Source of the DNA: an uncultured virus (IMG/VR IMGVR_UViG_3300045391_006705)
Lineage: Duplodnaviria; Heunggongvirae; Uroviricota; Caudoviricetes
IMG/VR virus record: IMGVR_UViG_3300045391_006705
DNA: 64,000 nt
Strand: one strand, 5' to 3'
In this document: piece after piece, positions 5,586-26,784 of the stretch
Layout: every line of letters begins with the position of its first letter
How positions within the stretch are numbered: the first letter of the stretch is position 1
Notes under the pieces: generated by a model
Told to the model about the DNA's origin: nothing
Databases searched by the model: none
Seen by the model: the letters and a program-made list of their open reading frames with translations, nothing else
Program-made: the position numbers and the translations under genes

Positions 5586-6054
5586 GGGACCTCCAAGTGT
5601 GGGTTGTGGGACGGATTCCTGTGGGTAAACTCGATATGCGGATCAGCGCTCAGGCCTCGAGCGCGCGGAACCGGACCGTTAGGCGCGGCGCTCTAGGCCC
5701 GCGCGAGAAGCTCCGGCATGGGCGCACCACAAACCCCGCCCGCGCGCGCGGAGCTCAACTTCCGGCCGCCCAGCTCCCGCCGAGCAGCTCCCGCGAGCAG
5801 CTCCGGCCGCCCGCGAGCTGTCGGAGCTGGCCCCGCTCGCGCGAAGCTGGGGGACGCACGCAAGACCGGATCAGGGCGAGGGCGAGAGCAACAAAGGCCG
5901 TAGGCCCAAACCCCTCCCGCCCTAGCGGATTTTCGGTGCAAATCGGACTGAGCGCTCTACGCCCGTTACCCGCCCGCGCGAGACTCGACTACTTTGGCGT
6001 TGGGGCTAGGCTACTTTGACGCATGGCGCCGTATGGGCCTACCATTGGCCGGAA

Positions 6055-6201
6055 CGGCACGGCGCCACGGCACGGCGCCACGGATCGAGCACGGCGCCAC
6101 GGACGGCACGGACGGCACGGCGCCACGGCACGGCGCCACGGATCGAGCACGGCGCCACGGACGGCACGGACGGCACGGCGCCACAGCACGGCGCCACGGC
6201 G
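6055..6201. repeat. 58-bp tandem repeat (about 2.5 copies) built from GCACGGCGCCAC units
   Basis: Units start at 6055, 6113, 6171. Confidence 0.9.
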
Positions 6202-6270
6202 CGACGTGGCGCGCCTGGTCGATTCATGGCTGTATGATTGATAGCTAAACTACGTGGACGACGGACAACG

Positions 6271-6304
6271 AAAAGCCCCGCAACGTCGGACGTTGCGGGG
6301 CTTT
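6271..6304 (-). terminator. intrinsic terminator (possibly bidirectional)
   Basis: AAAAGCCCCGCAACGT-CGG-ACGTTGCGGGGCTTT just past the stop of 6319..6729. Confidence 0.8.
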
Positions 6305-6318
6305 AGGACTACTGTCGA

Positions 6319-6729
6319 TCAGATGCGAGTCACGTTCGCCAACACGGTACGGTACTGGGCGGCCAAATCGGCGCCTGACAGTCCGAACACGTCGCCCGTG
6401 GTAGGATCACGATAGACGAAACGTGACGCGCGCATCGTCTTTGCGGCAAGCATCGGACTGGCCGGAACGTCCCATGCGGCGAAGTCCACCGCACGCTGTT
6501 GCAACGTCGCGAGCATGTCGGCTGGTATGTCTTGTCCGGTGGCGGCGCATACCGTCACCGTCTTGACGGCGTGCAATGCTTCGCGTGGCGTGACTGCGTT
6601 CGGCCGTTTGGGCGCGTCGGACTGCTTGCCATCGGTCCCGTTGCTGTCGCTGGACTGCTTGTGCGTCACCGTCAGGACCGCGCCGAACACGTCGGCGAAC
6701 GTCGGGGCCTGCTTGCTCTTGCTGGGCAT
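6319..6729 (-). CDS. hypothetical protein, atypical codon usage
   Basis: GGAG RBS, ATG, followed by a terminator. Confidence 0.7.
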   Translation of the reverse strand: MPSKSKQAPTFADVFGAVLTVTHKQSSDSNGTDGKQSDAPKRPNAVTPREALHAVKTVTVCAATGQDIPADMLATLQQRAVDFAAWDVPASPMLAAKTMRASRFVYRDPTTGDVFGLSGADLAAQYRTVLANVTRI

Positions 6730-6747
6730 GGTACTGTCTCCATTGGT

Positions 6748-6849
6748 GGCGCAACGTCATTGCGGCGCGGTGGACTTTCCACCGGCCAACAGTCAGGGAC
6801 GTTGCGCCTAGACCCTGACTGTGCGTCCACCGTCGGTAGTGCGGTGGAC
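6748..6849 (-). ncRNA. putative structured 5' leader (three hairpins plus an 11-bp pseudoknot or alternative pairing)
   Basis: Complementary blocks 6748-6758/6798-6808, 6789-6798/6813-6822, 6768-6774/6778-6784, 6825-6832/6842-6849. Confidence 0.45.
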
Positions 6850-6988
6850 TATGTGTGAAAGCGAGAACGCTACCGGACATGGCAAACCTAGTGCCATCGT
6901 CGCAAGGTTCGATCTAGTGACTTGCGGCGTTGGTCTAGGGTAACATTGTGGCATCGACGCAACGAAAAACGTGGTAGGCGCGCAACAC

Positions 6989-7056
6989 TTGGACGGTGGC
7001 GCGGTGGCGTTGGACGGTGGCGCGGTGGCGTTGGGATGTAGGCGCGGTGGCGCTGG
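6989..7056. repeat. 21-bp tandem repeat TTGGACGGTGGCGCGGTGGCG (2 copies plus 1 degenerate)
   Basis: Direct inspection. Confidence 0.8.
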
Positions 7057-7267
7057 CCGTTAGTTGTTTGCAATCCCCGCAATGGCAAACAATTCCTAAG
7101 TCTCTGGGAGCTCAGGGTTTAGGCCTGGAGGGGTATTTGAATGGGAGCCCCTGGAAAGTCGCCGGCGGCCCAGGTAACCCCATCCAAAAACGCGGCGCAT
7201 TTTTCGGCTAACCCACCTGGTACCAACCACTTCCAACCCTCCATTGGGGGCCCCGCCCCGCCCCCGG

Positions 7268-7368
7268 TTCTCCACCCGTTTCCACCCCTTTTCCACAAAA
7301 GCCGGGCGTCCTGGCTCCCGGGCCGCTAACCCACATCCTTTCAACCGGTTATCCACCCGCTTTCCACC
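7268..7368 (+). promoter_or_regulatory. cluster of DnaA-box-like 9-mers
   Basis: TTTTCCACA (7289-7297) matches TTWTNCACA; TTATCCACC (7349); three further TCCACC variants. Confidence 0.35.
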
Positions 7369-7580
7369 CAAGCGGGGGTGGGCGCCCCGGTCTGGGTTGC
7401 GCGGCCCAGGGGTGGTGCGTCTTCCGGCATGTGCCGACACCGCCTTTACGCCCTCGCGCTCGTGCTGGTCGCCCAGGCCCGGGCCGGGCCGCCGCTGGTG
7501 TGGCTGGGGTACTACGCCTTGGCTGCCGGCTTGCCGGGCCTCGCCTGGCCGGATTCCCCCGCCTAGGCTATTTTGTCGGC

Positions 7581-7763
7581 ATGGGTGCCTGGACGGAGGC
7601 CGAAATCGCGGCCGCGACGCTGTTGGACGAGTGGGTCCGATGCGTGCGGTCGGAAGATTGGCGTGAGGTGCCTGGGAGGCCGTATGATTTCGAGTGTGTC
7701 TGGGTCGGGTGCAGGGGGAGGGTGTTCGGCGTCTTCCGGCGCTACGCCCACGCCGCCGCCTGA
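7581..7763 (+). CDS. helix-Zn-ribbon family paralog 1 (degenerate Cys)
   Basis: TEAEIAAATLLDEW..C. Confidence 0.65.
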   Translation: MGAWTEAEIAAATLLDEWVRCVRSEDWREVPGRPYDFECVWVGCRGRVFGVFRRYAHAAA

Positions 7764-7791
7764 CCCGTTTGCGTAGCGGCCGGAGGCTGAA

Positions 7792-8049
7792 ATGAAAGAC
7801 GCGGCGGCGGCAGCCCAAATACTCACCGGCCTGGTCACCTGCCACGCCTGCCTTGGCAACCAATGGCACTTCTGCGGCTGGGACCAGGGGCTGGACGTCT
7901 GGGATGTCCGCCTCTGGCGCTGCTCCGCCTGCGGCCTTTGCTTGCGGGAGAGCGGCCTTGCCGGCCGGGCCTTGCCAGCCGTCCGGGTGTTGGTGCAGGG
8001 CGGCGACCTGGTCGAACTGTCGTTCGAGGACCAGGGGCTCGAGTGGTGA
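7792..8049 (+). CDS. helix-Zn-ribbon family paralog 2
   Basis: AAAAAQILTGLVT-CHAC...CSAC. Confidence 0.8.
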   Translation: MKDAAAAAQILTGLVTCHACLGNQWHFCGWDQGLDVWDVRLWRCSACGLCLRESGLAGRALPAVRVLVQGGDLVELSFEDQGLEW

Positions 8050-8270
8050 ACCCCGCCCCAGAACCCTGGTCGGACGCCGACCTGGCGGCGGTGACGCTGC
8101 TGGACGGCTGGCTACGCTGCCGATGCGGCTCCGACCAATGGATCGCGGTCACCTACGGCTACCTGTGCGGCCGGCCCCACTGCCTGGAATGGCGGGGCGC
8201 GCGCGGGACCCGCCGCCTGGCCCTGCCGGGCACGATGTTGTGCCGGGTGGCGCAGGTGGGGCGGGGGTGA
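8046..8270 (+). CDS. helix-Zn-ribbon family paralog 3
   Basis: GTGA overlap; DADLAAVTLLDGWLR-CRC...CGRPHC. Confidence 0.75.
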   Translation: MNPAPEPWSDADLAAVTLLDGWLRCRCGSDQWIAVTYGYLCGRPHCLEWRGARGTRRLALPGTMLCRVAQVGRG

Positions 8271-8494
8271 CGGACGCGGCGCTGGCGGCCCAAATGCTGA
8301 CGGGCCTGGTCCACTGCCCCGGCTGCCTGGGCGACGTGTGGGAGTTTTCGTCCCTCGGGCCGGGTCGCGAGTTCGCGCCGCTCGCCTGGCGCTGCGCCGT
8401 TTGCCGTCGGCTTCTGGAGCCGCCGGCGGCGGACTACGTGCGGGAGTTGGCGGAGCCGCGCTATCCCTGGGCCTACCGCATTCGCCTGGTATAA
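8267..8494 (+). CDS. helix-Zn-ribbon family paralog 4
   Basis: GTGA overlap; TDAALAAQMLTGLVH-CPGC...CAVC. Confidence 0.8.
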   Translation: MTDAALAAQMLTGLVHCPGCLGDVWEFSSLGPGREFAPLAWRCAVCRRLLEPPAADYVRELAEPRYPWAYRIRLV

Positions 8495-8495
8495 T
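8487..8495 (+). promoter_or_regulatory. extended -10 promoter element TGnTATAAT
   Basis: TGGTATAAT at the short intergenic gap inside the array. Confidence 0.5.
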
Positions 8496-8522
8496 GGGCC
8501 TTGGGGCGTTAGTTTAGGCGCC

Positions 8523-8765
8523 ATGTTCAACCCGAGCCTGTCCGTCACGGAAGCCGCCGCCGCCAGCCTGCTGGACGGTTGGCTCGCGTGCAGCTGCGGC
8601 AACGACTGGTGGATGGCCCTCGGGTGGGATGTTGTGCTGACCCCAGGGCCGCCCAGCCGAGTGTGGTTCGCCTGCACCGACTGCGGCGTAGTTCGCAGCA
8701 GCCACGTGAACGTGCTGACCCAGCGGGCGGCTGGCGCGCCCTACCGGTTCCGGGTGGCGCGATGA
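8523..8765 (+). CDS. helix-Zn-ribbon family paralog 5
   Basis: TEAAAASLLDGWLA-CSC...CTDC. Confidence 0.8.
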   Translation: MFNPSLSVTEAAAASLLDGWLACSCGNDWWMALGWDVVLTPGPPSRVWFACTDCGVVRSSHVNVLTQRAAGAPYRFRVAR

Positions 8766-8986
8766 GGATCGAGTTCCAGCTGGACGCGACCCAGCTCCAG
8801 CAATTTTTGGCGACCGCCACGGGGATCAGCCGGTGCCGCTACCGGTGGTGTGGCGGCGAGTTGTCCCACCTCCGCCTCCAGGGCCGCCGGCCGTCGCGCG
8901 GCCCGTTCACGGTGACGGCGACGGTGTCGGGAGCCGAGGCGGCGGCGATGCGGCTCGCAGGCGCCGATTTCCGGATCGTGGGATGA
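8762..8986 (+). CDS. hypothetical protein inside the array (not clearly a paralog)
   Basis: ATGA overlaps at both ends; contains AEAAAMRLAG near its C-terminus. Confidence 0.65.
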   Translation: MRIEFQLDATQLQQFLATATGISRCRYRWCGGELSHLRLQGRRPSRGPFTVTATVSGAEAAAMRLAGADFRIVG

Positions 8987-9243
8987 GCGCCGCCTTCGCG
9001 GCCCAAAAGCTGACGGGCCTGGTGACATGCCCCGGCTGTTTGGGGATGGAGTGGGTGTTTGACTGGCGCACGGACGAGGAGCGGCGGCACTGGCACTGCG
9101 CCGGCTGCCAGCGCATCCTTCTCGAGGGCCGGGATCCCCGCCAGGCGGGCGTTTTCGTCCTGGTCGGCCCGCCTGCCTGGACCGTCGGCCACCGGCTCGG
9201 GTACAAGATCCCTTTTGCGGAGCAGCGGCTGGAGTTCCCGTGA
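8983..9243 (+). CDS. helix-Zn-ribbon family paralog 6
   Basis: AAFAAQKLTGLVT-CPGC...CAGC. Confidence 0.85.
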   Translation: MSAAFAAQKLTGLVTCPGCLGMEWVFDWRTDEERRHWHCAGCQRILLEGRDPRQAGVFVLVGPPAWTVGHRLGYKIPFAEQRLEFP

Positions 9244-9524
9244 CCGACGCCACGATGCTGGCGGCCTTCGCGGCCCAGGCCCTCAGCGGCGTGGTCACCT
9301 GCCCTAGCTGCTTGGGGGCGGAATGGGTGTTTGACCTCCCCGAAACGGATTGGCGGTGGCGCCACTGGCACTGCGCGGACTGCCAGCGCATCCTTCTCGA
9401 GGGCCGGGACCAGGACCCGCGTCGGGCGGCCTTTTTCGTCCTGGTCGGCCGACCCGCCTTCACCGCCTACCGGGAACCCAAGTACAGGATTCCTTTTGCG
9501 CAACAGCGGCTGGAGTTCCCGTGA
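9240..9524 (+). CDS. helix-Zn-ribbon family paralog 7 (recent duplicate of 6)
   Basis: CPSC...CADC; shares CQRILLEGRD and IPFAxQRLEFP with paralog 6. Confidence 0.85.
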   Translation: MTDATMLAAFAAQALSGVVTCPSCLGAEWVFDLPETDWRWRHWHCADCQRILLEGRDQDPRRAAFFVLVGRPAFTAYREPKYRIPFAQQRLEFP

Positions 9525-9733
9525 CCGAGGCCGAAGCCGCCGCCACGACGCTCCTCGACCGCTGGTATGACTGCCCCGAATGCGGCGGGGACCGGATGGC
9601 CGTCACCGAGCGCTCCGCCTACCGCGTGGTTTTCCGGTGCCTCGCCTGCTCGGCGCAGTTGAGCTGTGGCATCCTGTATTGGGAACGGAATGTGTGGCAC
9701 GAGCCTGGCGCCTTCCGGCTACGAATACAATGA
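9521..9733 (+). CDS. helix-Zn-ribbon family paralog 8
   Basis: TEAEAAATTLLDRWYD-CPEC...CLAC. Confidence 0.85.
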   Translation: MTEAEAAATTLLDRWYDCPECGGDRMAVTERSAYRVVFRCLACSAQLSCGILYWERNVWHEPGAFRLRIQ

Positions 9734-9954
9734 CCGAGGCCGAAGCCGCCGCCACGACGCTGCTCGACGGCTGGTACCGCTGTCCCTGCGGCGGGGACGA
9801 GTTCCGGGTCGCCGGGCAGATGGTGAGCGACGGCGGGCTCGTGTGCCTCGCCTGCCGGGCGCGGCACTCCTGCGGCCTCTATTACTGGCGGGGCCACCAT
9901 TGGCTGGTGCGGGACGGCGTGTACCGCATGCGGCGGGTCGGGTGGGTACGCTAA
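9730..9954 (+). CDS. helix-Zn-ribbon family paralog 9
   Basis: MTEAEAAATTLLDGWYR-CPC...CLAC. Confidence 0.85.
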   Translation: MTEAEAAATTLLDGWYRCPCGGDEFRVAGQMVSDGGLVCLACRARHSCGLYYWRGHHWLVRDGVYRMRRVGWVR

Positions 9955-10214
9955 CCGAGGCCGAGGCCGCCGCCGCGACGCTGGCCGACGCCTGGTTCCG
10001 CTGTCGGTACTGCGGCGAGGCTGAGTTCCGGCGTCTAGACGCCTGGGCGTTCGGCTGTGCGAACTGCTGGGCCGAGTTCCGCTGCGGCCCGGAGTTCTGG
10101 CACGCGAATCTCTGGCGAGTGGGGAACGTGTGCCGCCTGCGGGTGGAGAACGCAGCGCACGCGCGGCAGCTCGGGGACGTCTACCCATGGGACGGCGGAC
10201 GGGTGCGTGACTGA
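9942..10214 (+). CDS. helix-Zn-ribbon family paralog 10
   Basis: TEAEAAAATLADAWFR-CRYC...CANC. Confidence 0.8.
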   Translation: MGTLTEAEAAAATLADAWFRCRYCGEAEFRRLDAWAFGCANCWAEFRCGPEFWHANLWRVGNVCRLRVENAAHARQLGDVYPWDGGRVRD

Positions 10215-10431
10215 ATCGCGAGACGCGCGGTTGGCCGCCGCCAAGCTCCTCGACTCGCCCTGGATCCACTGCCCGGCCTGCGGCAGCGACACGTGGCTGT
10301 ACGTATATTTCACCGGGGTCCTATACCGTTGCGCCGAATGCCAGGCGGAGCAGCCGGCGCAGCAGGAGTCTTTCGAATGGGTCGTGCCGACCGACGTGAA
10401 CGACCTGCGCATCCGTCTGCGGCGGCCGTGA
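10207..10431 (+). CDS. helix-Zn-ribbon family paralog 11
   Basis: LAAAKLLDSPWIH-CPAC...CAEC. Confidence 0.85.
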   Translation: MTESRDARLAAAKLLDSPWIHCPACGSDTWLYVYFTGVLYRCAECQAEQPAQQESFEWVVPTDVNDLRIRLRRP

Positions 10432-10661
10432 GCGCGCTGCAAGCGGCGGCCCGCCTGGCCGGCTCGCCCTACGAAATGTGCCCCCGCTGCGCCGGCGACC
10501 TGTTCGGCAACCGGACCTCGGGCTACGACACCATGGAGACCTTCCAGTGCATCGCCTGCGGCTGCGGCATCGCGGTTCCCTACGGCACGTTCCAGCGCGA
10601 GTACGCGGGTGTGTACGAAGTCCCGCCCGACCGCTGCGAACTGCTGCGGCTCCGCCGGTGA
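10428..10661 (+). CDS. helix-Zn-ribbon family paralog 12
   Basis: LQAAARLAGSPYEM-CPRC...CIAC. Confidence 0.85.
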   Translation: MSALQAAARLAGSPYEMCPRCAGDLFGNRTSGYDTMETFQCIACGCGIAVPYGTFQREYAGVYEVPPDRCELLRLRR

Positions 10662-10897
10662 CCGACCCCGCCCTGGCGGCCGCCCGGCTCTGGGCCGCCG
10701 CCCTCGAGGATTCGCCCTGGATCCACTGCCCCGAGTGCGGTGGCGACGTGTGGCTCCTGCAGGGGTTCGCGTCGACGCCGTTGCGCTGCGCGGAATGCGG
10801 CGTCGGGCGGGCCTGGTGCCGGCACGGGTGGGATCACGACGGTCCGATCGATGGGCGCGTGCGGCTGTGGCGAGATTTCCGGTGGCTTCGGAAATGA
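10658..10897 (+). CDS. helix-Zn-ribbon family paralog 13
   Basis: AAALEDSPWIH-CPEC...CAEC. Confidence 0.85.
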   Translation: MTDPALAAARLWAAALEDSPWIHCPECGGDVWLLQGFASTPLRCAECGVGRAWCRHGWDHDGPIDGRVRLWRDFRWLRK

Positions 10898-11139
10898 GCG
10901 CCACCGACACCGCCCGCGCGGCGGCCGCCCTCCTGGGCACGCCGGTGCAGGTGACCTGCCCCGCCTGTCGCGGCGGGTTGTGGGCGGGGGTGCTGGCCTA
11001 CCCCCGCTGGTCGTTCGGCCGCTGCCTCTCGTGCGGCTGGTACGAACCGGTGGAGAGCGACCTCATTTCCTACACCGCTTTCGTCGGAGCCCCGCCGGGC
11101 GAATTGCGCGCCCGCCTCTGGGTGGAGCCCGCCAAATGA
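10894..11139 (+). CDS. helix-Zn-ribbon family paralog 14
   Basis: ARAAAALLGTPVQVT-CPAC...CLSC. Confidence 0.85.
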   Translation: MSATDTARAAAALLGTPVQVTCPACRGGLWAGVLAYPRWSFGRCLSCGWYEPVESDLISYTAFVGAPPGELRARLWVEPAK

Positions 11140-11345
11140 CCGACGTCCAGCGGGCCGCCACGCTGCTCACCGGCGCCTACCACTGCGCCTGCCTGGGCGA
11201 CCTCTGGTCCTACGACGTCTCGCGCCTCCGGTGGCGCTGCTGCGCTTGCGGAGCGGAGTTGGTGGTGCCGCCGGCGGACGCGCCCTACGGCCTGCGCCGC
11301 GACACCGCCCTGCCGATGACGGCGCCGCAGCGGCTGTCGGTCTAG
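11136..11345 (+). CDS. helix-Zn-ribbon family paralog 15
   Basis: MTDVQRAATLLTGAYH-CAC...CCAC. Confidence 0.8.
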   Translation: MTDVQRAATLLTGAYHCACLGDLWSYDVSRLRWRCCACGAELVVPPADAPYGLRRDTALPMTAPQRLSV

Positions 11346-11346
11346 C

Positions 11347-12423
11347 TCACCAACTCGAGCCCCCGCCCCCGCCCCCGAAGCTGTCCGACCCGCCGCCGCC
11401 CCAACTCGAGTCGCTCGACGAACTCGAGCTCGAATCGTAGCTGGAATAGCTCGACCGCCGGGATTCCTCCTCCGCTTCCTCCCGCCGCCGGCGTTCCGCT
11501 GCCTCGGCCGCCGCCAGGGCCGCCAGCCGTTCCTGCTCGGCCCGTTCCGCCAACTCGGCGGCCTGCTGGTCGGGGGTGAGGCCCGCCCACCGGACGCGCT
11601 CCCGTTCGGCCGCCTCGGCCGCCGCCTGCTGGCGCCGGGCCTCGGCCGCCTCGCGCTGCCGCTGGGCCTCGGCGTCCCGCAGCGCCTGGAGCCGCCGTTC
11701 CTCCGCCAACCGCCGCGCCTCCTCGGCCCGCCGCCGCGCGGCCCATGCGCGCCACCGGCGCCAGGCCAGGGCGGCCGGCACGGCGACGAGGGCCAGGAGC
11801 CCGAGCACCCAGCCCCACGGCACGTCAATCGGCCTGGACGGGGCGGGCGGGACCACGGGGACCTTGCTCGCCGCATGACGGCGGTCGAACTCCTGGGCGA
11901 TGGCCAGGAGGCCGCCGCCGTAGTCACCCGCCCGGAAGGCGGGGGCGGCGTCCCGGCAGGCCTGGGCCGCGTCGGCGTCCGTCATGTAGCCCTCCGACCC
12001 GGTGGCCACCTCCACCCGGCACTTGTGGCGGTCGAGCACTAGGAGCAGCACGCCGCCCGCGTGGCGGTTCTGGGAGCGGGAATCGGCGGCCTGGGCGACG
12101 AGCCACTTGCGCCCGATCTCGAGCGCCACGTCCGCCTCGTCCCGCTGGCCGGTAGTCGGCAGCACGACGGCGTACAGGGGCAGGGAGTCCCGGTCCCAGA
12201 TCCCGCGCAGCGCGGCCTCGAGGGCGGCGGGGTCCTTCACCGCCCCCGTCGGGTCGACGAGGCGGCCCGTCGGGGCGTCGGGGAACAGCGAGTCGACGCG
12301 GGCGTTGAGGCCGTGGAGCCGGGGTTCCTGCCCGGCGGCCGGGATGGGGAACAGGAGGCCGACGGCCAGGAGCAGGGCCGCCACGAGGGCGAGGCCGAGG
12401 GCCGACTTGGCGGGGCGCGTCAT
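11347..12423 (-). CDS. TPM-domain (YgcG-like) membrane protein
   Basis: Signal peptide; GVLLLV..RVEVATGSEGYMTD..F..GDY; TM helix; C-terminal SFGGGGGGSSW tail. Confidence 0.85.
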   Translation of the reverse strand: MTRPAKSALGLALVAALLLAVGLLFPIPAAGQEPRLHGLNARVDSLFPDAPTGRLVDPTGAVKDPAALEAALRGIWDRDSLPLYAVVLPTTGQRDEADVALEIGRKWLVAQAADSRSQNRHAGGVLLLVLDRHKCRVEVATGSEGYMTDADAAQACRDAAPAFRAGDYGGGLLAIAQEFDRRHAASKVPVVPPAPSRPIDVPWGWVLGLLALVAVPAALAWRRWRAWAARRRAEEARRLAEERRLQALRDAEAQRQREAAEARRQQAAAEAAERERVRWAGLTPDQQAAELAERAEQERLAALAAAEAAERRRREEAEEESRRSSYSSYDSSSSSSSDSSWGGGGSDSFGGGGGGSSW

Positions 12424-12605
12424 CGGACGGCGACCCGGTTGCGCGGCGTCTCGAAGTAGACCAAGCCGCTGGCGGCCTCCTGGAGGCGGTCAGCGAGTTG
12501 GTCGCGCACCCGTTCGACCTCGTCCCGCGTCAGGTATCGGTGGGCGGAGTCGATCACGGCCGTGATGCGCACGGCGCCGGCGTCGACCTCGATCTTCCGT
12601 TTCAT
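12420..12605 (-). CDS. hypothetical protein
   Basis: GAGG RBS; ATGA overlap with the TPM gene. Confidence 0.65.
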   Translation of the reverse strand: MKRKIEVDAGAVRITAVIDSAHRYLTRDEVERVRDQLADRLQEAASGLVYFETPRNRVAVR

Positions 12606-12661
12606 GTGGGTCCTCGTGGTGGTGTCCGGAACATAGACGCGCCGGGCCGCCGGGCGCAACC

Positions 12662-12693
12662 GCGTGATGTTCGGCGGGCCCCGGGCGTCTCTC
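12662..12693 (+). promoter_or_regulatory. class I promoter-like motif CGTGAT-N17-CGTCTCTC (copy 1 of 7)
   Basis: Identical boxes and spacing at 7 intergenic sites. Confidence 0.8.
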
Positions 12694-12716
12694 GTTCGGA
12701 ATTCACGGGAGGTCGG

Positions 12717-13304
12717 GTGGCGGAGGATCGCACGACGCAGTTTTCGGAGCTGTACCGGATCGGGGCCTCGACGCTCCGGCCGGAGCCGATCGTCTTCTAC
12801 AAGCCGAAGAAGACCGGCGACGGGGTGGCGGCGAAGTTCAACCTGACGCTCCGGCCGGTGTACGACCCGGAGGACGGCTTCGTGAAGGAGGTCGACGGGG
12901 GCCTGTTCCTGGACCTGGTGGCGCAGGGCGACACCAACGCGGCGGGCTTCCCGACGTTCAAGTGGACGGACCGGGACACCCTGATCACGGCGAAGTTCGG
13001 GCTGCCCGACGTGTCGGGCCTCCTGGCCGCGATCCGGGATTTTCGCGTCCGGGGCATCGAAGTAGCGACGTATCTACGGGGGAAGGACAAGACGAAGGGG
13101 AACGTGGTCTCGTTCTTCCACAAGTCCGGGGCGGCCGACACGACGGCGATCACCTATACGTTCGACGCCGAGTCGAGCGCCATGCGGCTGTCCAAGTCGC
13201 GGGAGAAGTCCCGGTCGGTGTCGCTGACGCTGGGGGAGGAACTCATCCTCCAGAAGTACCTCGAGTTCGCGCTCGACGCCTTCGTCCGCGTCGGCCTGCG
13301 GTGA
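12717..13304 (+). CDS. Whirly-like single-stranded nucleic-acid-binding protein
   Basis: Motif order FYK..GGLFLDL..FKW..AKFGLPDV..FFH..SVSLTLGEELIL parallels plant Whirly. Confidence 0.55.
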   Translation: MAEDRTTQFSELYRIGASTLRPEPIVFYKPKKTGDGVAAKFNLTLRPVYDPEDGFVKEVDGGLFLDLVAQGDTNAAGFPTFKWTDRDTLITAKFGLPDVSGLLAAIRDFRVRGIEVATYLRGKDKTKGNVVSFFHKSGAADTTAITYTFDAESSAMRLSKSREKSRSVSLTLGEELILQKYLEFALDAFVRVGLR

Positions 13305-13534
13305 ACCGCCGCGCCTGGGCGCTCCTCGCTCTCGGCGTGGCGGCGGTGGTTGGCGGCGGCTGCATCACGCTGCTCGGGGCGGCCTACGCCGTCCTCGGGG
13401 CCTGGTGGTTCGCGCTGCCGTTCCTTTCGGTCGGGTTCGCGCTGGGAAGCAGCGGCACAATCGCCGGGCTGACGGCCCTCCGCTCGCTCCTCGCCGGCCC
13501 GGATCCGGCCGAAAAGAATCCCGCCGATTCGTGA
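13301..13534 (+). CDS. small membrane protein (2 TM)
   Basis: GTGA overlap; hydrophobic. Confidence 0.65.
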   Translation: MNRRAWALLALGVAAVVGGGCITLLGAAYAVLGAWWFALPFLSVGFALGSSGTIAGLTALRSLLAGPDPAEKNPADS

Positions 13535-13709
13535 CGAATCGGCGCGTTGGTCGTAGTACGGGCGAGAAACGCGGCGGACCGCCGCGAATCCCGCCGCACC
13601 GCCCGTTCCGCTAGCAACCGGGCGCAAACACCGCTTCGATCGGCCGCAGTTCGGGGCTGATGGCGCCACAATTCGCTTCGATCGGCCGCACCTCGGGGCC
13701 GATGCGCGC
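13522..13709. repeat. 10-bp inverted repeat (13522-13544) and 42-bp-period direct repeat (13632, 13674)
   Basis: CGCCGATTCG-TGA-CGAATCGGCG; CGCTTCGATCGGCCGCA x2. Confidence 0.8.
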
Positions 13710-13750
13710 ATTTTCCGCCCTCGACGAGGGCGCTTTTGGGATACCAATCG

Positions 13751-14590
13751 ATGGGGATGACGAGGGAACGCTGCGCGGAACTCCTTTCGCGCGGGCTCGC
13801 TCGCGCGTTGGTGGCCGCCGGTCTGCCGCCCTTTGCGGTGACGACGGCGATGGTGCGCGAGTGGCTGCTCGAACCCGAGTTGGGGATAGGGGTTCAGTGT
13901 CGCTCTTCGACTGGCACTGCGCCGACCGCACCGACAGCGGCGACCAGCCAAGCCGCTGAGGGAACGCCGGAAGCGGCGCAGGGCGCTGCGGTAAATTCAA
14001 GGGCAACTGCCGAAGCGCACTGCGAAGAGCGGAGCACTGACTCGGAGACGCTCGCGCGATGGGCTGACGTCTGGCGCTATTGGCTCGAGCTCCTCGGCAA
14101 GGACCCGGCGACGGAGTGCGAGCCGAAGGCGCGGTCGAAGATCGTCGACCGTCTGGCCGCCGGCTTCACGCCGGCCGAATTGCAGGAGGCGCTCCAGCGC
14201 GCCCACCTCCAGCCGGCCCTGGTCCAGCGCAAGCGACTGCTGTCGCCCGCCCGGCCGCTGCAGTCGGACGAGCAGGTGTGCCGCCTCCTGGGCCGGCCGT
14301 ACAAGCGGGCGGCGCGGACGTGGCTCACGCCGTTCGAGGACGCCTGGCAGGCCGAGTACGGGGCGGGGTCGCTCGAGTACGGCGCCTTCGCCAAGTATGC
14401 GGCGCGGCTGGTGGGCGAGCTCGGCGGCCCCGCCGTGCTGGAGGAGTTCAAGGCCTACCTGCGCCAGACGCCGATCGAGTATGTGTCGTGGAGCAAGTTC
14501 GCCTCCGGCTGCGGGGCCGAGGGCGGGTGGCGCACGCGGCCAGGCCGCGCCTCGAAGCGCGCGAGCGCGGGCCTCGACAATGTCTGGTAG
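13751..14590 (+). CDS. putative replisome organiser/replication initiator
   Basis: VWRYW..KARSKIVDRLAAGFTPAEL..LSPARPL resembles the conserved phage replication-protein C-terminal domain. Confidence 0.5.
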   Translation: MGMTRERCAELLSRGLARALVAAGLPPFAVTTAMVREWLLEPELGIGVQCRSSTGTAPTAPTAATSQAAEGTPEAAQGAAVNSRATAEAHCEERSTDSETLARWADVWRYWLELLGKDPATECEPKARSKIVDRLAAGFTPAELQEALQRAHLQPALVQRKRLLSPARPLQSDEQVCRLLGRPYKRAARTWLTPFEDAWQAEYGAGSLEYGAFAKYAARLVGELGGPAVLEEFKAYLRQTPIEYVSWSKFASGCGAEGGWRTRPGRASKRASAGLDNVW

Positions 14591-14849
14591 CGTCCTGACG
14601 CCGGCCCAGGGCTCGGCCCTCCGCCGCCCCGATCCGGAGGCGGAGGCGGCGGCCGCCCGCCTCGCGGGCCTGGATCCGCCCCTGTTCTGCCGCTGCGGCT
14701 GGCACCTCTGGACCCTGTCCCCGGTTTGGGCGTGCTGGCACTGCGGCTGGCAGTTGCCTGTCGGTTTCCACGCCCCCGCGTGCGAGCGTTTCGCCTGCAT
14801 CGACGGGCCCGTGGCGCACGTCTGCCTCTACTTGCTGCGCGTCCCATAG
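14580..14849 (+). CDS. helix-Zn-ribbon family paralog 16
   Basis: EAEAAAARLAGLDPPLF-CRC...CWHC. Confidence 0.75.
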   Translation: MSGSVLTPAQGSALRRPDPEAEAAAARLAGLDPPLFCRCGWHLWTLSPVWACWHCGWQLPVGFHAPACERFACIDGPVAHVCLYLLRVP

Positions 14850-14867
14850 CCCCCACCAGGAGTCGCC

Positions 14868-15812
14868 ATGAAGCTCGCCGCCCTGCTGCTGTGCCTCGCC
14901 CTCCCGCTCGCCGCCCAGCGGCCCGCGCCGCGCCGGATCGAGTTCCGCACCCGCCCCTGGTTCGCGCAGAACGCGCGGAAGGTGCGGGGCGGGCACACGA
15001 GCGGCACGGGGATCTACTACCACGGCGGGCCGGTGCTCGGGGCCGGGACGCGCGTGGCGGCGGTCTACTGGGCCAACGGCGCGATCTACCGGGGCGGCCC
15101 GCAGCCCGGCGCCTTCGGCCCGGGGGCCGACGACGGGTCGCTCGTGGGCGCGTTCCTGCGCGGGCTCGGCGGCTCGCCCTACTACGCCATCAACACCACG
15201 TACACGGACCAGGGCGGCCTCGCGGTGGCCAACCGGGTCGACTACACGCAGTTCTGGGCGGCGGACGTCGGCGTGCCGGCGCCGGGGGCGGTCGCCTCGG
15301 ATGCCGACATGCTCGCGCTGCTCGAGCAGGGCTTCGCCACCGGGCGCCTGGTGTACGACGCCGGCACGGTGTACGCGGTGTTCACGGCCGGCTCGGTGAA
15401 CCTGGGCGGCGGGTTCGGGAGCCAGTACTGCGCCTACCACTCCTGGGGGTCCGTGACGGTGGCCGGGCGGTCGGTCACGGTGCTCTACGCCGCCATGCCG
15501 TACGACTGGTACCGCGCGGACGTCTGCTCGAGCGGCGCGGCGCCGGCCAACGGCGCCTACGACCCGGCGGCCGACGCCGAGGTGTCGACCCTGGCCCACG
15601 AGCTCGAGGAGGCGGCGACCGACGCCCTGGGCTCGGCCTGGTACGACCGCAACGGCTACGAGAACGCCGACAAGTGCGCCTGGACCTACGGGGCCACCTA
15701 CCAGACGGCGGCCGGCGGGGTGGCCAACATGCGCGTCGGCGGCTACGATTTCCTGGTCCAGCGCAATTGGGCGAACGCCGGCCCGGGCGGCTGCTACGTC
15801 GCCTGGCCCTGA
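14868..15812 (+). CDS. secreted Phi-1/EXORDIUM-like protein
   Basis: Signal peptide; YHGGPVL, YCAYHS, LAHELEEAATD, ENADKC, FLVQRNW motifs. Confidence 0.8.
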   Translation: MKLAALLLCLALPLAAQRPAPRRIEFRTRPWFAQNARKVRGGHTSGTGIYYHGGPVLGAGTRVAAVYWANGAIYRGGPQPGAFGPGADDGSLVGAFLRGLGGSPYYAINTTYTDQGGLAVANRVDYTQFWAADVGVPAPGAVASDADMLALLEQGFATGRLVYDAGTVYAVFTAGSVNLGGGFGSQYCAYHSWGSVTVAGRSVTVLYAAMPYDWYRADVCSSGAAPANGAYDPAADAEVSTLAHELEEAATDALGSAWYDRNGYENADKCAWTYGATYQTAAGGVANMRVGGYDFLVQRNWANAGPGGCYVAWP

Positions 15813-15867
15813 CCGGCGCGGGCGGCTATATTCGAGGGAATCCTAGCACGCCCCCGGACCCTTGGCA

Positions 15868-16113
15868 ATGCGCCTCGCCGACCTCCCGCGCCCCACGCCC
15901 GCCGACCTGGCGGCCGCCGCCCTGCTCGATTCCTGGCTCCGGTGCCCGGAGTGCGGGTCCGAGGCGGCGTGGGAGGGCGCGCTGGAGGGCGGGGACGAGG
16001 ACCCGCTCGTCGCCCTGCTCATCTGCTCCGCCTGCCTGCGCTTCCGCACCCACCACGCCCAGGGCCTCCTGGCCCTTCCGGACGACCACGGCGCCTGGCG
16101 GCTCTGCCGATGA
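15868..16113 (+). CDS. helix-Zn-ribbon family paralog 17
   Basis: ADLAAAALLDSWLR-CPEC...CSAC. Confidence 0.85.
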   Translation: MRLADLPRPTPADLAAAALLDSWLRCPECGSEAAWEGALEGGDEDPLVALLICSACLRFRTHHAQGLLALPDDHGAWRLCR

Positions 16114-16340
16114 GCTTGAACGCCCGGCAGTTGGCCGTGCGCACGGCCGCCCAGTTGGCGGGGGACCCGCCGCCGGTGGTGTGCCCGTGCGGGAGCGAGG
16201 AATGGCTCGCCGTTCCGGCCTGCGCCTGGACCTGCTGCGCCTGCGGGGCGCGGGTGTCCGATGGCCTGGGCTTTCGCGTCGTGTGGATGTCGATCCGGAG
16301 CGGCAGCCTCAGGTCCGTCTACCGCCTCCTGGAACGGTGA
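16110..16340 (+). CDS. helix-Zn-ribbon family paralog 18
   Basis: TAAQLAGDPPPVV-CPC...CCAC. Confidence 0.8.
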   Translation: MSLNARQLAVRTAAQLAGDPPPVVCPCGSEEWLAVPACAWTCCACGARVSDGLGFRVVWMSIRSGSLRSVYRLLER

Positions 16341-16576
16341 GCTGGGACGCCGAGGTGGCGGCCGCCAAGCTGCTGGGCGACCCCGTCCCGATCCCCTGCA
16401 GGGAATGCGGCGGCTGGCTGTGGCTGTTTGTGCGGCGGTCCCAGGGCGCGCTGGAGGAATGGCGGTGCGTCGGCTGCGGGTTCCGGTGGCGCATCCTCTC
16501 CCCCGCCGACGACTTCCCGGCCTACGACCACGTCGGCTACGACCCGGACGGGCCGGTCTACCGGCTCTACGAATGA
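16337..16576 (+). CDS. helix-Zn-ribbon family paralog 19
   Basis: AEVAAAKLLGDPVPIP-CREC...CVGC. Confidence 0.85.
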   Translation: MSWDAEVAAAKLLGDPVPIPCRECGGWLWLFVRRSQGALEEWRCVGCGFRWRILSPADDFPAYDHVGYDPDGPVYRLYE

Positions 16577-16713
16577 GCGACGCCGAGCGAGCGGCCGCCA
16601 GGCTGTTGAACGCGCCGGTGCCGGTCTACTGCCCCTGCGGCTCGGACGGGTTCGAGTACGCCGAGGGTTGGGTGTGCGCGCGCTGCTGCCGACGGCTGGC
16701 GTCCGCGCGCTGA
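16573..16713 (+). CDS. helix-Zn-ribbon family paralog 20 (short)
   Basis: MSDAERAAARLLNAPVPVY-CPC...CARC. Confidence 0.8.
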   Translation: MSDAERAAARLLNAPVPVYCPCGSDGFEYAEGWVCARCCRRLASAR

Positions 16714-16739
16714 TGCGACTCTCCAGAGAGGGGTTCGAA

Positions 16740-16768
16740 TTGACACGTATATTGGCATATCGTATTAT
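16740..16768 (+). promoter_or_regulatory. sigma70-type promoter
   Basis: TTGACA-17 nt-TATTAT in an AT-rich island. Confidence 0.8.
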
Positions 16769-16778
16769 GTCAGTTAGG

Positions 16779-17093
16779 ATGGCATCGCTCGCCCCGGCCG
16801 CGTGCCCACTGGATCGGGTTGGGCCCGCTATGCCCGCTGTTCGAGCCCGAGTGACGGAGGCTTCCGTGTGGTCGATCGGTTCCTGGACGGCGTATTGGTC
16901 GGAGGACTCCCGCCGACCGGGGATCGGCAGCCAGCGCGCGACGTTCCGGCGCCCGCGCCGCCGACCGAGGCGGGACGGCACGCTGCCGGACCTGCCGCCG
17001 CCGCGCGCGTTCCGCGAATGGTGGGTCGGGCGGCTCGTGGTCCGGCGGGCGGCGCCTGCGTCGCCGGGGGTCGCCGGGCGACGCAGTAAGTAG
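16779..17093 (+). CDS. hypothetical Arg-rich protein (start uncertain)
   Basis: Good GC3 in the 3' half; follows the sigma70-type promoter. Confidence 0.4.
   Translation: MASLAPAACPLDRVGPAMPAVRARVTEASVWSIGSWTAYWSEDSRRPGIGSQRATFRRPRRRPRRDGTLPDLPPPRAFREWWVGRLVVRRAAPASPGVAGRRSK
17055..17085 (+). promoter_or_regulatory. class II promoter-like motif CCYGCG-N18-CGACSYA (copy 1 of 4)
   Basis: CCTGCG-N18-CGACGCA. Confidence 0.55.
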
Positions 17094-17129
17094 GGGCCCG
17101 CGTCGGGCCCCGTCAAACGGGGGTGGGGC

Positions 17130-26061: not shown

Positions 26062-26576
26062 TCGCCGAGGCCTGGCCGCGCGTCCGGGCGGTGGCGTACG
26101 CCTTCCGGAACTTCACCGAGCTGCCGCCGGCCTCCAACCGGGGCCAGGTGGTCGACCGGTTGCAGGAATTCGCGGGCCTCGACCCCAAGGGCGCCAACCC
26201 CTGGTGCGCCTGCGCGGTCTACTACGCCGGGTTCCACGGCCTGCTCGACCCGATCGCAGGCGCGAGCGCCTGGCCGCTGCCGAAGACGGCGTCGTGCGCC
26301 CTGCTCGGCCAGTTCGCGCGGGCCAAGGGCGTCCTGGTGGCGGAGCCGGCCGAGGGCGACGTGTTCCTCCTCTTCTACCCCAAGCTCAAGCGGTTCGCCC
26401 ACACCGGCTTTGTGATCGGGCGGAACGCCGACGGCTCGTGGCGGACGCTCGAAGGGAACACCTCGAAGCCTGGCGACACCAATCCCGCCACCCAGCGCGA
26501 GGGGTGGGGTTGGTTCGAACGGTCGCGGCGTTTCGGCGTCGAGGACCGCTTCATCCGGTGGTTGCCTTTGCTCTAG
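26058..26576 (+). CDS. CHAP-domain endolysin
   Basis: N.G..V..PWCACAV..GDVF..HTGFV..TLEGNT. Confidence 0.8.
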   Translation: MIAEAWPRVRAVAYAFRNFTELPPASNRGQVVDRLQEFAGLDPKGANPWCACAVYYAGFHGLLDPIAGASAWPLPKTASCALLGQFARAKGVLVAEPAEGDVFLLFYPKLKRFAHTGFVIGRNADGSWRTLEGNTSKPGDTNPATQREGWGWFERSRRFGVEDRFIRWLPLL

Positions 26577-26784
26577 CGATCCGGAATGTCGGGCCGTCGG
26601 GCGGCCAAACGAGCTCGAAGAACCAGACCGTAAGGGCGGTTCCGCTTATGTAGGTGAACGTATCGCAGCCGGCGCACACGATGCTCTGGTTGTCGGAGGC
26701 GATGCGGTAGCGGTCGCCGCCGCAGGCGTGGCACCGGCGCCACCGGTCCTCGAGCGTGGCGGCGGCCGCCTCGGCTTCGGACAT
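26551..26784 (-). CDS. helix-Zn-ribbon family paralog 21 (isolated, opposite strand)
   Basis: MSEAEAAAATLEDRWRR-CHAC...CAGC. Confidence 0.8.
   Translation of the reverse strand: MSEAEAAAATLEDRWRRCHACGGDRYRIASDNQSIVCAGCDTFTYISGTALTVWFFELVWPPDGPTFRIARAKATTG

What the first reader, a model, noticed from the sequence alone, without database searches (positions are those of the whole stretch)
7581..16713. Array of about 21 diverged 'helix + zinc-ribbon' mini-proteins: a candidate undescribed effector or adaptor library
Seen: 15 short ORFs in 7581-11345, one at 14580, four at 15868-16713 and one on the opposite strand at 26551-26784 share one architecture. Each has an N-terminal Ala-rich helix (consensus about T-E/D-A-E-x-A-A-A-x-L-L-D/T/G-x-W/P), then Cx(1-2)C, about 10-25 variable residues, CxxC, and a highly variable tail often ending in an aromatic-R-hydrophobic-R strand. 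Most are chained by ATGA/GTGA overlaps. The supplied ORF track hides them inside longer shadow ORFs. Inference: a constant docking module with variable specificity surfaces, expressed near the start of the rightward arm. This would suit a library of host-takeover or anti-defence proteins, or exchangeable adaptors for one shared partner. I do not recognise it as a named family.
Basis: partly seen in the sequence, partly recalled or inferred. Interest (0 to 1): 0.92.

Follow-up and report, generated by a model that had tools for sequence, protein, structure and literature searches.

The report
Phage array of zinc-ribbon mini-proteins
An uncultured high-GC soil phage gives about a fifth of its genes to 21 diverged copies of one small, unnamed zinc-binding protein at the start of its main gene arm; they are probably a toolkit of small binders aimed at the host cell, but their function is untested.

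Summary
Twenty-one ORFs of 46-94 aa form one homologous family: 15 in 7581-11345, one at 14580, four at 15868-16713, and one on the minus strand at 26551-26784. Every member is recovered by a leave-one-out profile (E 1e-16 to 1e-6). A six-frame scan finds these 21 and nothing else, and all have coding-type GC3 of 0.80-0.97.

Each member has an N-terminal helix with an Ala/Ala/Ala/Leu face, a C4 zinc ribbon, a variable hairpin and tail, and a conserved Arg-containing last strand. No member passes a Pfam, PHROGs, NCBIfam or PADLOC threshold. Fold searches return only generic zinc ribbons (Rpb9, TFIIS, NrdR type).

The host record is a roughly 73-kb phage contig with primase-helicase, PolA, TerL and QueC. 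Eleven firm relatives lie on other soil-metagenome contigs, apparently also in clusters. One 1.4-kb contig carries three in a row.

A near-identical contig lacks exactly one member (281 bp), so copy number varies in nature.

Function is inferred only. The most likely reading is early, translationally coupled, diversified binders for host takeover or counter-defence. Large paralog arrays of zinc ribbons in phages are already in print (phage G), so this is a new, unnamed family of a known kind.

The parts
7581..7763 (+). m01, 60 aa. Degenerate member: 3 Cys, first knuckle lost one Cys, second is C-x4-C.
   Evidence: Leave-one-out HMM E 8.5e-7. GC3 0.82. Best paralog m03, E 3.5e-10.
7792..8049 (+). 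m02, 85 aa, 'LTGLVxC' subtype. It has a GGAGG upstream.
   Evidence: Leave-one-out E 4.1e-11. SD-like core present.
8046..8270 (+). m03, 74 aa. Second knuckle is C-x4-C.
   Evidence: Leave-one-out E 7.6e-10. GTGA overlap with m02.
8267..8494 (+). m04, 75 aa, 'LTGLVxC' subtype.
   Evidence: Leave-one-out E 7.7e-14.
8523..8765 (+). m05, 80 aa.
   Evidence: Leave-one-out E 9.3e-10.
8762..8986 (+). x5b, 74 aa. It is coupled into the chain by ATGA overlaps on both sides but is not a significant member. It may be a chimera or relic carrying a fossil N-terminal helix near its C-terminus.
   Evidence: Leave-one-out E 7.5. hhalign residues 55-68 match family positions 1-14, probability 8%. GC3 0.89.
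8983..9243 (+). m06, 86 aa. Closest paralog of m07.
   Evidence: blastp against m07: 68.5% identity, E 2e-41.
9240..9524 (+). m07, 94 aa. This member is absent from the near-identical contig L026.
   Evidence: L026 equals window 8324-9248 plus 9530-11292, so 281 bp are missing. AF2 model pLDDT 75.2.
9521..9733 (+). m08, 70 aa, canonical member.
   Evidence: AF2 model pLDDT 86.7, pTM 0.69. A 236-nt contig from a soil RNA library covers 9522-9730 at 100% identity.
9730..9954 (+). m09, 74 aa.
   Evidence: Leave-one-out E 8.9e-15.
9942..10214 (+). m10, 90 aa. Start is uncertain; the GTG at 9942 overlaps m09 by 13 nt.
   Evidence: Leave-one-out E 4.4e-9. Start candidates.
10207..10431 (+). m11, 74 aa, 'AAAKLLDSPW' subtype.
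   Evidence: Leave-one-out E 1.3e-16. Groups with outside proteins P0043 and P0062, support 98/85.
10428..10661 (+). m12, 77 aa.
   Evidence: Leave-one-out E 1.8e-8.
10658..10897 (+). m13, 79 aa.
   Evidence: Leave-one-out E 4.2e-10.
10894..11139 (+). m14, 81 aa.
   Evidence: Leave-one-out E 2.3e-9.
11136..11345 (+). m15, 69 aa, last member of block 1.
   Evidence: Leave-one-out E 1.6e-10.
14580..14849 (+). m16, 89 aa, a solitary member. It overlaps the end of the 13736-14590 gene by 11 nt.
   Evidence: Leave-one-out E 9.6e-7. Coordinates.
15868..16113 (+). m17, 81 aa, first member of block 2.
   Evidence: Leave-one-out E 1.6e-8.
16110..16340 (+). m18, 76 aa.
   Evidence: Leave-one-out E 7.1e-10.
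16337..16576 (+). m19, 79 aa.
   Evidence: Leave-one-out E 7.6e-13.
16573..16713 (+). m20, 46 aa. Helix and zinc ribbon only, with no tail.
   Evidence: Leave-one-out E 2e-11.
26551..26784 (-). m21, 77 aa. Isolated member on the opposite strand, just upstream of the primase-helicase gene.
   Evidence: Leave-one-out E 2.4e-12. GC3 0.83.
5590..7428 (.). Non-coding divergent control region between the leftward and rightward arms, except for one minus-strand ORF at 6319-6729. It holds 58-nt x3 and 21-nt x3 tandem repeats and four TCCACCC copies.

Best explanation
The window is most of a roughly 73-kb uncultured, probably lytic, high-GC soil phage.

Shown or predicted here:
- The 21 genes encode one previously unnamed family of 46-94-residue proteins.
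- The common scaffold is a short N-terminal helix with a small-residue face (A4, A7, A8, L11 in m08 numbering), a C4 zinc ribbon (C18, C21, C40, C43, with G-G-D-x-W after the first knuckle), and a final beta strand with a near-invariant Arg.
- Between these scaffold parts, the hairpin between the knuckles and the tail are hypervariable in sequence and length.

Inferred:
- The genes are transcribed with the first genes of the rightward arm.
- They are translated mainly by termination-reinitiation through 4-nt stop/start overlaps, because most lack their own Shine-Dalgarno site.
- Each member acts as a small zinc-stabilised binding module whose variable surface recognises a different host protein or nucleic-acid target. 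Together they would form a host-takeover or counter-defence toolkit.
- The conserved helix is either a shared docking element or a structural cap.

Partly shown:
- The array grows by duplication of one- or two-gene units and shrinks by recombination between the repeated gene junctions. Natural variants differ in copy number.
- The main subtypes are older than the split between the phages that carry them.
For: Family and coding reality.

Scaffold against variable sites: column entropies are 0-0.7 bits at A4, A7, A8, L11, C18, C21, C40, C43 and R66, against 2.5-3.6 bits in the hairpin (27-37) and tail (45-60).

Fold: the AF2 model of m08 has pLDDT 86.7, with helix 3-10 and five strands. The m07 model has pLDDT 75.2, with helix 2-16 and three strands. 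A family profile against PDB sequences gives the Rpb9 zinc ribbon as best hit, E 6.8e-4.

Phage context and position: AEP primase-DnaB, PolA, QueC, endonuclease VII, DNA methylases and TerL. The array follows the 1.8-kb control region and precedes the nucleotide and replication genes.

Coupling: 14 of 16 overlapping in-block junctions are 4-nt overlaps, against 20 of 68 among other plus-strand neighbours.

Not uniformly basic: pI 4.8-8.8 and net charge -5 to +3, with 0-7 Trp per protein (1 or more in 20 of 21, 3 or more in 17 of 21). This fits protein-binding surfaces better than bulk DNA binding.

Turnover: L026 is otherwise near-identical (2 SNPs in 2,688 nt) but lacks exactly m07. Its junction is a hybrid that an assembler could not produce from a 3-nt overlap. 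Best-paralog pattern m01~m03 and m02~m04, with the DNA repeat families linking them spaced 477 and 475 nt; m11~m13 spaced 457 nt, beside a weaker m12~m14 link (E 7.8e-6). This points to duplication of two-gene units.

Relatives: 11 firm outside members were found in a 1.84-billion-protein profile search. They share contig lengths in groups (8164 bp x3, 5086 bp x2, 17023 bp x2). L025, from a different 74%-GC phage fragment, has three consecutive members after a Thg1 gene. In the tree, outside members nest inside window subtypes, and starred branches force at least 3 label changes.

Weak expression hint: one soil metatranscriptome contig covers m08 at 100% identity.
Against: No function-bearing homolog was found by sequence or fold.

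Only 4 of 22 chain ORFs have an SD-like core. That matches the 13% background (p 0.30), whereas 50 of 91 other genes have one. Translation therefore rests on coupling alone and could be weak.

Early timing is inferred from gene order only. The sigma-70 scan found no promoter directly upstream of the array; its best site (11 of 12 matches) lies after the array, at 16740-16768.

The RNA-library contig may be carried-over DNA, and its internal joint runs through a 31-nt repeat, so it looks like a k=31 assembly artefact.

Pairwise dN/dS of 13 paralog pairs is 0.29-1.0. This gives no proof of positive selection, and dS is compressed by the extreme GC3.

The host is unknown, and no relative was found in 185,579 species genomes by two motif scans or in IMG/VR.

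m01 and m03 have damaged knuckles and may be decaying.
Confidence: 0.45

Rival explanations
1. The proteins are sequence-specific transcription factors, or RNA-polymerase-binding regulators of the phage's own programme. Each zinc ribbon would read a different DNA site or modulate RNAP. This is what Iyer et al. proposed for the phage G zinc-ribbon expansion.
For: The family profile's best PDB hits are transcription-type zinc ribbons: Rpb9 E 6.8e-4, then TFIIS, RPA12 and TFIIB. The NrdR zinc ribbon superposes at 1.3-1.6 A over 40-41 columns, but at Foldseek E about 0.5. The phage G passage suggests specific TFs or structural DNA-binding proteins (PMC7824862). The phage carries its own sigma-like gene at 38637-39011.
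Against: 14 of 21 members have net charge 0 or below, or pI under 7, and none is strongly basic. None of the similarity scores is above generic zinc-ribbon level. A 73-kb phage would hardly need 21 specific regulators. No repeated operator set matching 21 factors was seen in the repeat scan of 5500-17500.
Confidence: 0.2
2. The conserved N-terminal helix is a capsid-targeting or processing signal, and the proteins are packaged and injected with the DNA as variable internal proteins. The analogy is the T4 internal proteins, which have a constant targeting peptide and variable bodies (recalled from memory, not checked in a paper here).
For: The N-terminus is constant while the body is variable. 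A large S8 protease gene lies beside TerL in the late region, at 42610-44316.
Against: The genes lie at the start of the arm, 25-30 kb upstream of the packaging and head genes, and are chained to each other rather than to late genes. Several members carry extra residues before the helix (m05, m16, m17). No cleavage motif was identified. The S8 protein has an I9 propeptide typical of secreted subtilases.
Confidence: 0.07
3. The array is largely neutral or selfish duplication of a single small gene, with most copies functionally redundant or decaying.
For: A natural variant lacks m07. m01 and m03 have damaged knuckles, and x5b looks like a relic. dN/dS reaches 1.0 for some pairs. SD sites are mostly missing.
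Against: All 21 ORFs are intact despite divergence down to about 20-40% identity. Scaffold residues are near-invariant. Subtypes are shared with other phage contigs. Phage genomes are under strong size constraint.
Confidence: 0.08
4. The ORFs are not genes. They would be chance open frames or a DNA-level repeat in GC-rich sequence.
For: High-GC DNA carries many long shadow ORFs, and SD sites are few.
Against: Conservation is at the protein level, with invariant Cys codons at 20-40% identity. GC3 is 0.80-0.97. No shadow frame hits the HMM. The AF2 fold is confident. Homologs occur on other contigs.
Confidence: 0.02

Closest known systems
Lineage-specific expansion (about 35 copies) of a zinc ribbon in Bacillus jumbo phage G (Iyer et al. 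2021, Viruses 13:63, PMC7824862; passage read)
   Same: Many paralogous copies of a small zinc-ribbon protein within one phage genome, with function unknown.
   Different: There is no detectable sequence relationship. The family HMM run over the whole 497,513-bp phage G record gives one candidate at E 0.03. The present phage is about 73 kb, not a jumbo phage. The present family adds a conserved N-terminal helix and a conserved last strand. The paper's supplement listing the phage G copies was not seen.
C4 zinc ribbons of the Rpb9 / TFIIS / RPA12 / TFIIB / NrdR / eS27 type
   Same: Two Cys knuckles flank a beta hairpin. The profile hits Rpb9 at E 6.8e-4, and the NrdR ribbon superposes at 1.3-1.6 A over about 40 columns.
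   Different: The scores are at generic-fold level: Foldseek best E 0.14, VIA best Z 3.8. The family has its own N-terminal helix and C-terminal strands. The proteins are stand-alone phage genes.
Lar restriction-alleviation protein family (Pfam PF14354), a small phage zinc-ribbon protein
   Same: A small phage-encoded C4 zinc-ribbon protein linked to counter-defence.
   Different: Only 1 of 22 ORFs hits PF14354, at E 0.0059 and 17.3 bits against a cut-off of 28.6. Lar is a single-copy gene, not an array (recalled).
Other expanded mini-protein arrays noted earlier in this scan (e1-5374971, e1-5557283, e1-5365129): unrelated families in large phages
   Same: Tens of diverged copies of a small Cys-rich or other domain, in tandem blocks in uncultured or jumbo phages, read as host-directed proteins.
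   Different: These are different sequence families; no shared words with this window's m08 were found. Those are unchecked AI notes, and parts of some were later withdrawn.

Membership tests
C4 zinc ribbon fold (generic) | Two Cys pairs (CxxC or CxC knuckles) spaced by a beta hairpin | tested here: met
   19 of 21 members have C-x(1-2)-C ... C-x2-C. m01 and m03 deviate.
C4 zinc ribbon fold (generic) | Predicted beta-hairpin ribbon around the knuckles | tested here: met
   AF2 gives m08 strands at 26-31, 35-40 and 46-50 (pLDDT 86.7), and m07 three strands. This is a prediction only; zinc binding was not measured.
Rpb9 / TFIIS-type transcription zinc ribbons | Significant sequence or fold match to the family | tested here: inconclusive
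   Profile against PDB: Rpb9 E 6.8e-4, 23 bits over positions 20-53 only. Pfam Zn_ribbon_RPB9 and TFIIS are below cut-off. Foldseek E is 0.14 or worse.
Lar_restr_allev (PF14354) | Pfam score at or above the gathering cut-off (28.6 bits) | tested here: not met
   1 of 22 ORFs hits, at 17.3 bits and E 0.0059.
Zn_ribbon_IS1595 (PF12760) | Pfam score at or above the gathering cut-off (25.4 bits) | tested here: not met
   5 of 22 ORFs give weak hits; the best is 22.0 bits.
DUF7567 (PF24451) | Pfam score at or above the gathering cut-off (27 bits) | tested here: not met
   m11 only, 23.4 bits over 30 of 131 profile positions.
Phage G zinc-ribbon expansion (Iyer et al. 2021) | Detectable homology to the phage G copies | tested here: not met
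   Family HMM over the whole JN638751 record: one candidate, E 0.03.
Phage G zinc-ribbon expansion (Iyer et al. 2021) | Many paralogous zinc-ribbon genes in one phage genome (the phenomenon) | tested here: met
   21 copies in 64 kb.
Any PHROG / NCBIfam / PADLOC family | Profile hit at the library's threshold | tested here: not met
   PHROGs: 0 of 22 at E<=0.01. NCBIfam: best 0.00017, far below cut-offs. PADLOC: only Cas10 at E 0.025.
Early host-takeover / anti-defence gene set (functional class) | Early transcription and a host target | not testable with these tools
   Only gene order and one RNA-library contig bear on this.

The most novel reading that the evidence does not exclude
The family is a combinatorial adaptor library. 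The invariant Ala-face helix (A4, A7, A8, L11) would dock every member onto one shared machine, such as host RNAP, a protease or a phage enzyme. The hypervariable zinc-ribbon hairpin and tail of each member would recruit or block a different host target. Phages would hold a stock of at least three ancient subtypes and shuffle them by junction-repeat recombination.
Probability: 0.12. Interest if true: 0.85.

Novelty: new variant of a known kind. Interest (0 to 1): 0.55.

Why it matters
About 19% of the predicted genes (21 of 113) and about 4.9 kb (7.7%) of this 64-kb window belong to one unnamed mini-protein family. That is a very large investment for a phage that is not a jumbo phage.

The family has a confidently predicted fold and a clear split between constant and variable sites. 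It also shows natural copy-number variation, and it has relatives that cluster in other soil phages.

These features make it a tractable candidate for finding new small inhibitors of host or defence proteins. It is also a model for how phage gene arrays are born and lost. Its value is limited for now, because the host is unknown and nothing about function is measured.

Tried and rejected
- Homodimer test: complex prediction with two copies of m08 gave no answer (score 0.15, mark 0.42). It is not used either way.
- Own genome: none is held for this window.
- Cultured-phage relatives: TerL tblastn and megablast of 7400-17000 against 50,697 phage records found no match.
- Distant phage loci: 23 IMG/VR loci sharing the 17130-17933 gene at 26-33% identity hold no family member; the best is E 0.0027.
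- IMG/VR scans with P0022, P0032, A6, A8 and P0057 returned only two unrelated loci, L024 and L030, which the HMM does not recognise.
- GTDB species genomes: two motif scans found nothing. These were motif-based, so sensitivity is limited.
- Word-based protein search with A4 returned only the window's own proteins plus P0022.
- ESM Atlas gave only unnamed clusters at 0.94-0.95.
- Fold searches: PDB Foldseek had 0 hits at E<=0.001. VIA-align over 48,161 chains had 0 at Z>=5. BFVD's best was E 0.055.
- Long multi-stretch hits of the profile search: 46 were scanned and are generic multi-zinc-ribbon proteins (DZR, IS1595, TFIIB, Lar and similar), giving no informative fusion. Eight of the 90 hits were not examined.
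- The 'goes back 209' joint in the RNA contig is rejected as evidence of an m08 duplication, because m08 and m09 share an exact 31-nt run, which equals Logan's k.
- No read-level support for the m07-less form was seen in runs X1-X3, which are contigs only.
- Literature: searches for 'bacteriophage + zinc ribbon + paralogous + tandem array' found 0 papers. 'Lineage-specific expansion + zinc ribbon + jumbo phage' found 1. 'paralog + 121Q + phage G + tandem' found 2 listings, which were not read.
- The contigs holding the outside relatives (8164, 5086, 17023, 17090 and 14872 bp) could not be fetched, so their array sizes remain inferred.

Full report
**What the window is.** The window is 64 kb at about 71% G+C with no tRNA genes. 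A GC3-based ORF picker gives 113 densely packed genes: a leftward arm at 70-6729 and a long rightward arm at 7429-63764. Pfam and PHROGs identify phage functions on the rightward arm:
- QueC, a GIY-YIG/HNH homing endonuclease, and a pyrophosphatase
- an AEP-primase/DnaB fusion (26873-28975) and DNA polymerase A (29001-31484)
- dNMP kinase and a RuvC-like resolvase
- a sigma-70 region-2 protein (38637-39011)
- large terminase (40179-42359) and an S8 protease
- C5 and other methyltransferases, endonuclease VII, and a glycosyltransferase

No whole genome is held for the window. The window's proteins sit on a 73,482-bp JGI contig. No cultured phage is similar.

**The observation.** A regex scan of all six frames for C-x(1-2)-C, 8-32 residues, then C-x2-C, preceded by at least 4 Ala, gave 23 matches. 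Nineteen lie at the reported places and 4 elsewhere. After fixing starts, the set is 21 ORFs of 46-94 aa.
- Leave-one-out profiles recover 21 of 21, at E 1.3e-16 to 9.6e-7 with Z=1000.
- A profile of all 21 finds exactly these 21 among 6,892 six-frame fragments, at E<=8e-11. The next window fragment is E 0.47, and no shadow frame scores.
- GC3 is 0.80-0.97 and GC2 0.50-0.66 in every frame.
- The chain 7581-11345 holds a sixteenth ORF, 8762-8986. It is coupled on both sides but is not a significant member (E 7.5). Its last 20 residues resemble the family's N-terminal helix (hhalign probability 8%), so it may be a recombination relic.
- Fourteen of the 16 overlapping in-block junctions are ATGA/GTGA overlaps.

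**Anatomy.** Near-invariant positions, in m08 numbering, are A4, A7, A8, L11, C18, C21, C40, C43 and R66. Common residues are [D/G]13, W15, P19, G22-G23-D24, W26, W/F38, G44 and P61. The hairpin (27-37) and the stretch 45-60 have entropies of 2.5-3.6 bits and many indels.
- AlphaFold2 with the 21-row alignment gives m08 pLDDT 86.7 and pTM 0.69. The model has helix 3-10 (low confidence, 55), then strands at 26-31, 35-40, 46-50, 58-61 and 64-68.
- m07 with a 32-row alignment gives pLDDT 75.2, with helix 2-16 and three strands.
- The proteins are not uniformly basic (pI 4.8-8.8, net charge -5 to +3), and most are rich in Trp.
- m01 and m03 have damaged knuckles.

**Comparison with known families.** Nothing passes a curated threshold.
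- Pfam: 0 of 22. The best hits are DUF7567 at 23.4 bits (cut-off 27) and Zn_ribbon_IS1595 at 22.0 bits (cut-off 25.4). One weak Lar hit scores 17.3 bits (cut-off 28.6).
- PHROGs: 0 of 22. NCBIfam and PADLOC: nothing.
- Fold searches give only generic zinc ribbons. Foldseek against PDB has best E 0.14 (RPA12), and NrdR ribbons superpose at 1.3-1.6 A over about 40 columns. VIA-align over 48,161 chains has best Z 3.8. BFVD's best is E 0.055.
- The family profile against PDB sequences puts the Rpb9 ribbon first, at E 6.8e-4.

The core is therefore an ordinary C4 zinc ribbon. The N-terminal helix and C-terminal strands are the family's own.

**Relatives.** A profile search of 1.84 billion representative proteins gave 90 hits at E<=1e-3. 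I read the sequences of 39 and ran Pfam on 46 longer ones. Eight were not examined.
- Seventeen hits are the window's own proteins or a one-residue variant.
- The long multi-stretch hits are generic multi-zinc-ribbon proteins that match only profile positions 16-56.
- Eleven small proteins share the full architecture: P0022, P0023, P0032, P0038, P0043, P0045, P0047, P0057, P0061, P0062 and P0073.
- Each of the 11 is seen on one or two contigs from JGI or Logan assemblies. This suggests clusters, but I could not fetch those contigs.
- One fetched contig (L025, 1,452 bp, 74% GC) shows a Thg1 gene (Pfam E 6.6e-26) followed by three consecutive members, the last cut by the contig end.
- In a maximum-likelihood tree of 33 rows, outside members nest within window subtypes. 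P0022 falls inside the 'LTGLVxC' clade (97/91), and P0043 and P0062 group with m11 (98/85). Starred branches force at least three label changes. Long branches make other placements unsafe. At least two subtypes therefore predate the split of the phages that carry them.

**Array dynamics.** Contig L026 (2,688 bp) equals window 8324-9248 (2 SNPs) joined to 9530-11292 (0 differences), so it lacks exactly the 281-bp m07 unit. The two junctions share a 25-nt exact run. L026's junction keeps the m07-type base after that run and then continues as m08, and an assembler cannot produce this from a 3-nt overlap. This is a natural copy-number variant. Best-paralog relations (m01~m03 and m02~m04, and m11~m13 with a weaker m12~m14 link at E 7.8e-6) and DNA repeat spacings of 477, 475 and 457 nt indicate duplication of two-gene units. 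Pairwise dN/dS for 13 pairs is 0.29-1.0. dS is compressed by codon bias, so this shows neither strong constraint nor positive selection.

**Expression.** Only 4 of 22 chain ORFs have an SD-like core, which matches the 13% background (p 0.30). In contrast, 50 of 91 other genes have one. Translation must rely mostly on stop/start coupling. The sigma-70 consensus scan shows no site directly upstream of the array; its best site (TTGACA-17-TATTAT) is just after it, at 16740-16768. Three soil DNA data sets hold the stretch, with word shares of 0.95, 0.82 and 0.38; one may be the source sample. One soil metatranscriptome has a 236-nt contig identical to m08. That contig may be DNA carry-over, and its internal joint runs through a 31-nt repeat shared by m08 and m09, so I discount the joint.

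**Interpretation.** Shown or predicted here: a real, unnamed, zinc-ribbon-based family; 21 intact copies; a constant scaffold with variable surfaces; clustering in other soil phage contigs; and natural gain or loss of copies. Inferred: early expression, from gene order, and function as diversified small binders for host takeover or counter-defence (confidence 0.45). The rivals are specific transcription or RNAP regulators (0.2), neutral or decaying duplicates (0.08), packaged internal proteins with an N-terminal targeting signal (0.07), and non-genes (0.02).

**Novelty.** The phenomenon is in print. Iyer et al. 2021 (PMC7824862, passage read) describe a roughly 35-copy zinc-ribbon expansion in phage G and suggest TFs or DNA-binding proteins. 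The present family is not detectably related to it: the HMM over the whole phage G record gives a best E of 0.03. Earlier notes of this scan list other, unrelated mini-protein arrays in large phages. I therefore rate this a new variant of a known kind. What is unusual is the share of a mid-sized phage genome it occupies, 21 of 113 genes.

Noticed in passing
window 6047-6220 and 6989-7052: Three tandem 58-nt repeats and three tandem 21-nt repeats lie in the 1.8-kb non-coding region between the two arms. They look like iterons or operators and could mark an origin or the early control region.
   Followed up: no
window 7271-7369: Four copies of TCCACCC lie within 100 nt, just upstream of the first rightward ORF. 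The motif is not enriched window-wide: 15 found against 11 expected.
   Followed up: partly
window 16740-16768: A near-consensus sigma-70-type promoter (TTGACA, 17 nt, TATTAT; 11 of 12 matches) sits immediately after the last array member and before gene 17130-17933.
   Followed up: no
window 8762-8986: This non-member ORF is embedded in the chain. Its C-terminal residues 55-68 resemble the family's N-terminal helix. L026 and run X2 carry a non-synonymous C>A change at 8946 within it.
   Followed up: partly
window 11347-12659 (minus strand): A TPM-domain protein (Pfam E 3.8e-15) with a Gly/Ser-rich tail, plus a 79-aa partner gene, lie on the opposite strand. They are inserted directly after array block 1.
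   Followed up: no
window 14868-15812: A 314-aa protein with an N-terminal hydrophobic leader weakly matches Phi_1 (phosphate-induced protein 1) at E 6.9e-5, 22.8 bits against a cut-off of 25. It lies between m16 and block 2.
   Followed up: partly
window 18635-21177: The QueC match in 19060-19566 starts only at profile position 92 of 210. The preceding ORF, 18635-19063, overlaps it by 4 nt, and a GIY-YIG/HNH homing endonuclease lies at 20242-21177. QueC may be split or truncated; this was not examined.
   Followed up: no
window 26873-28975: The replicative protein is a fusion of an AEP primase of the TOTE-conflict-system type (E 2.8e-20) with a DnaB-like helicase. m21 sits alone on the opposite strand just upstream of it.
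   Followed up: no
L025 79-879: A phage-borne Thg1-like tRNA-His guanylyltransferase (Pfam E 6.6e-26) is translationally coupled to a three-member array in a different 74%-GC contig.
   Followed up: partly
L026 (whole) against window 8324-11292: This near-identical contig lacks exactly one array member (281 bp) and has a hybrid junction.
   Followed up: yes
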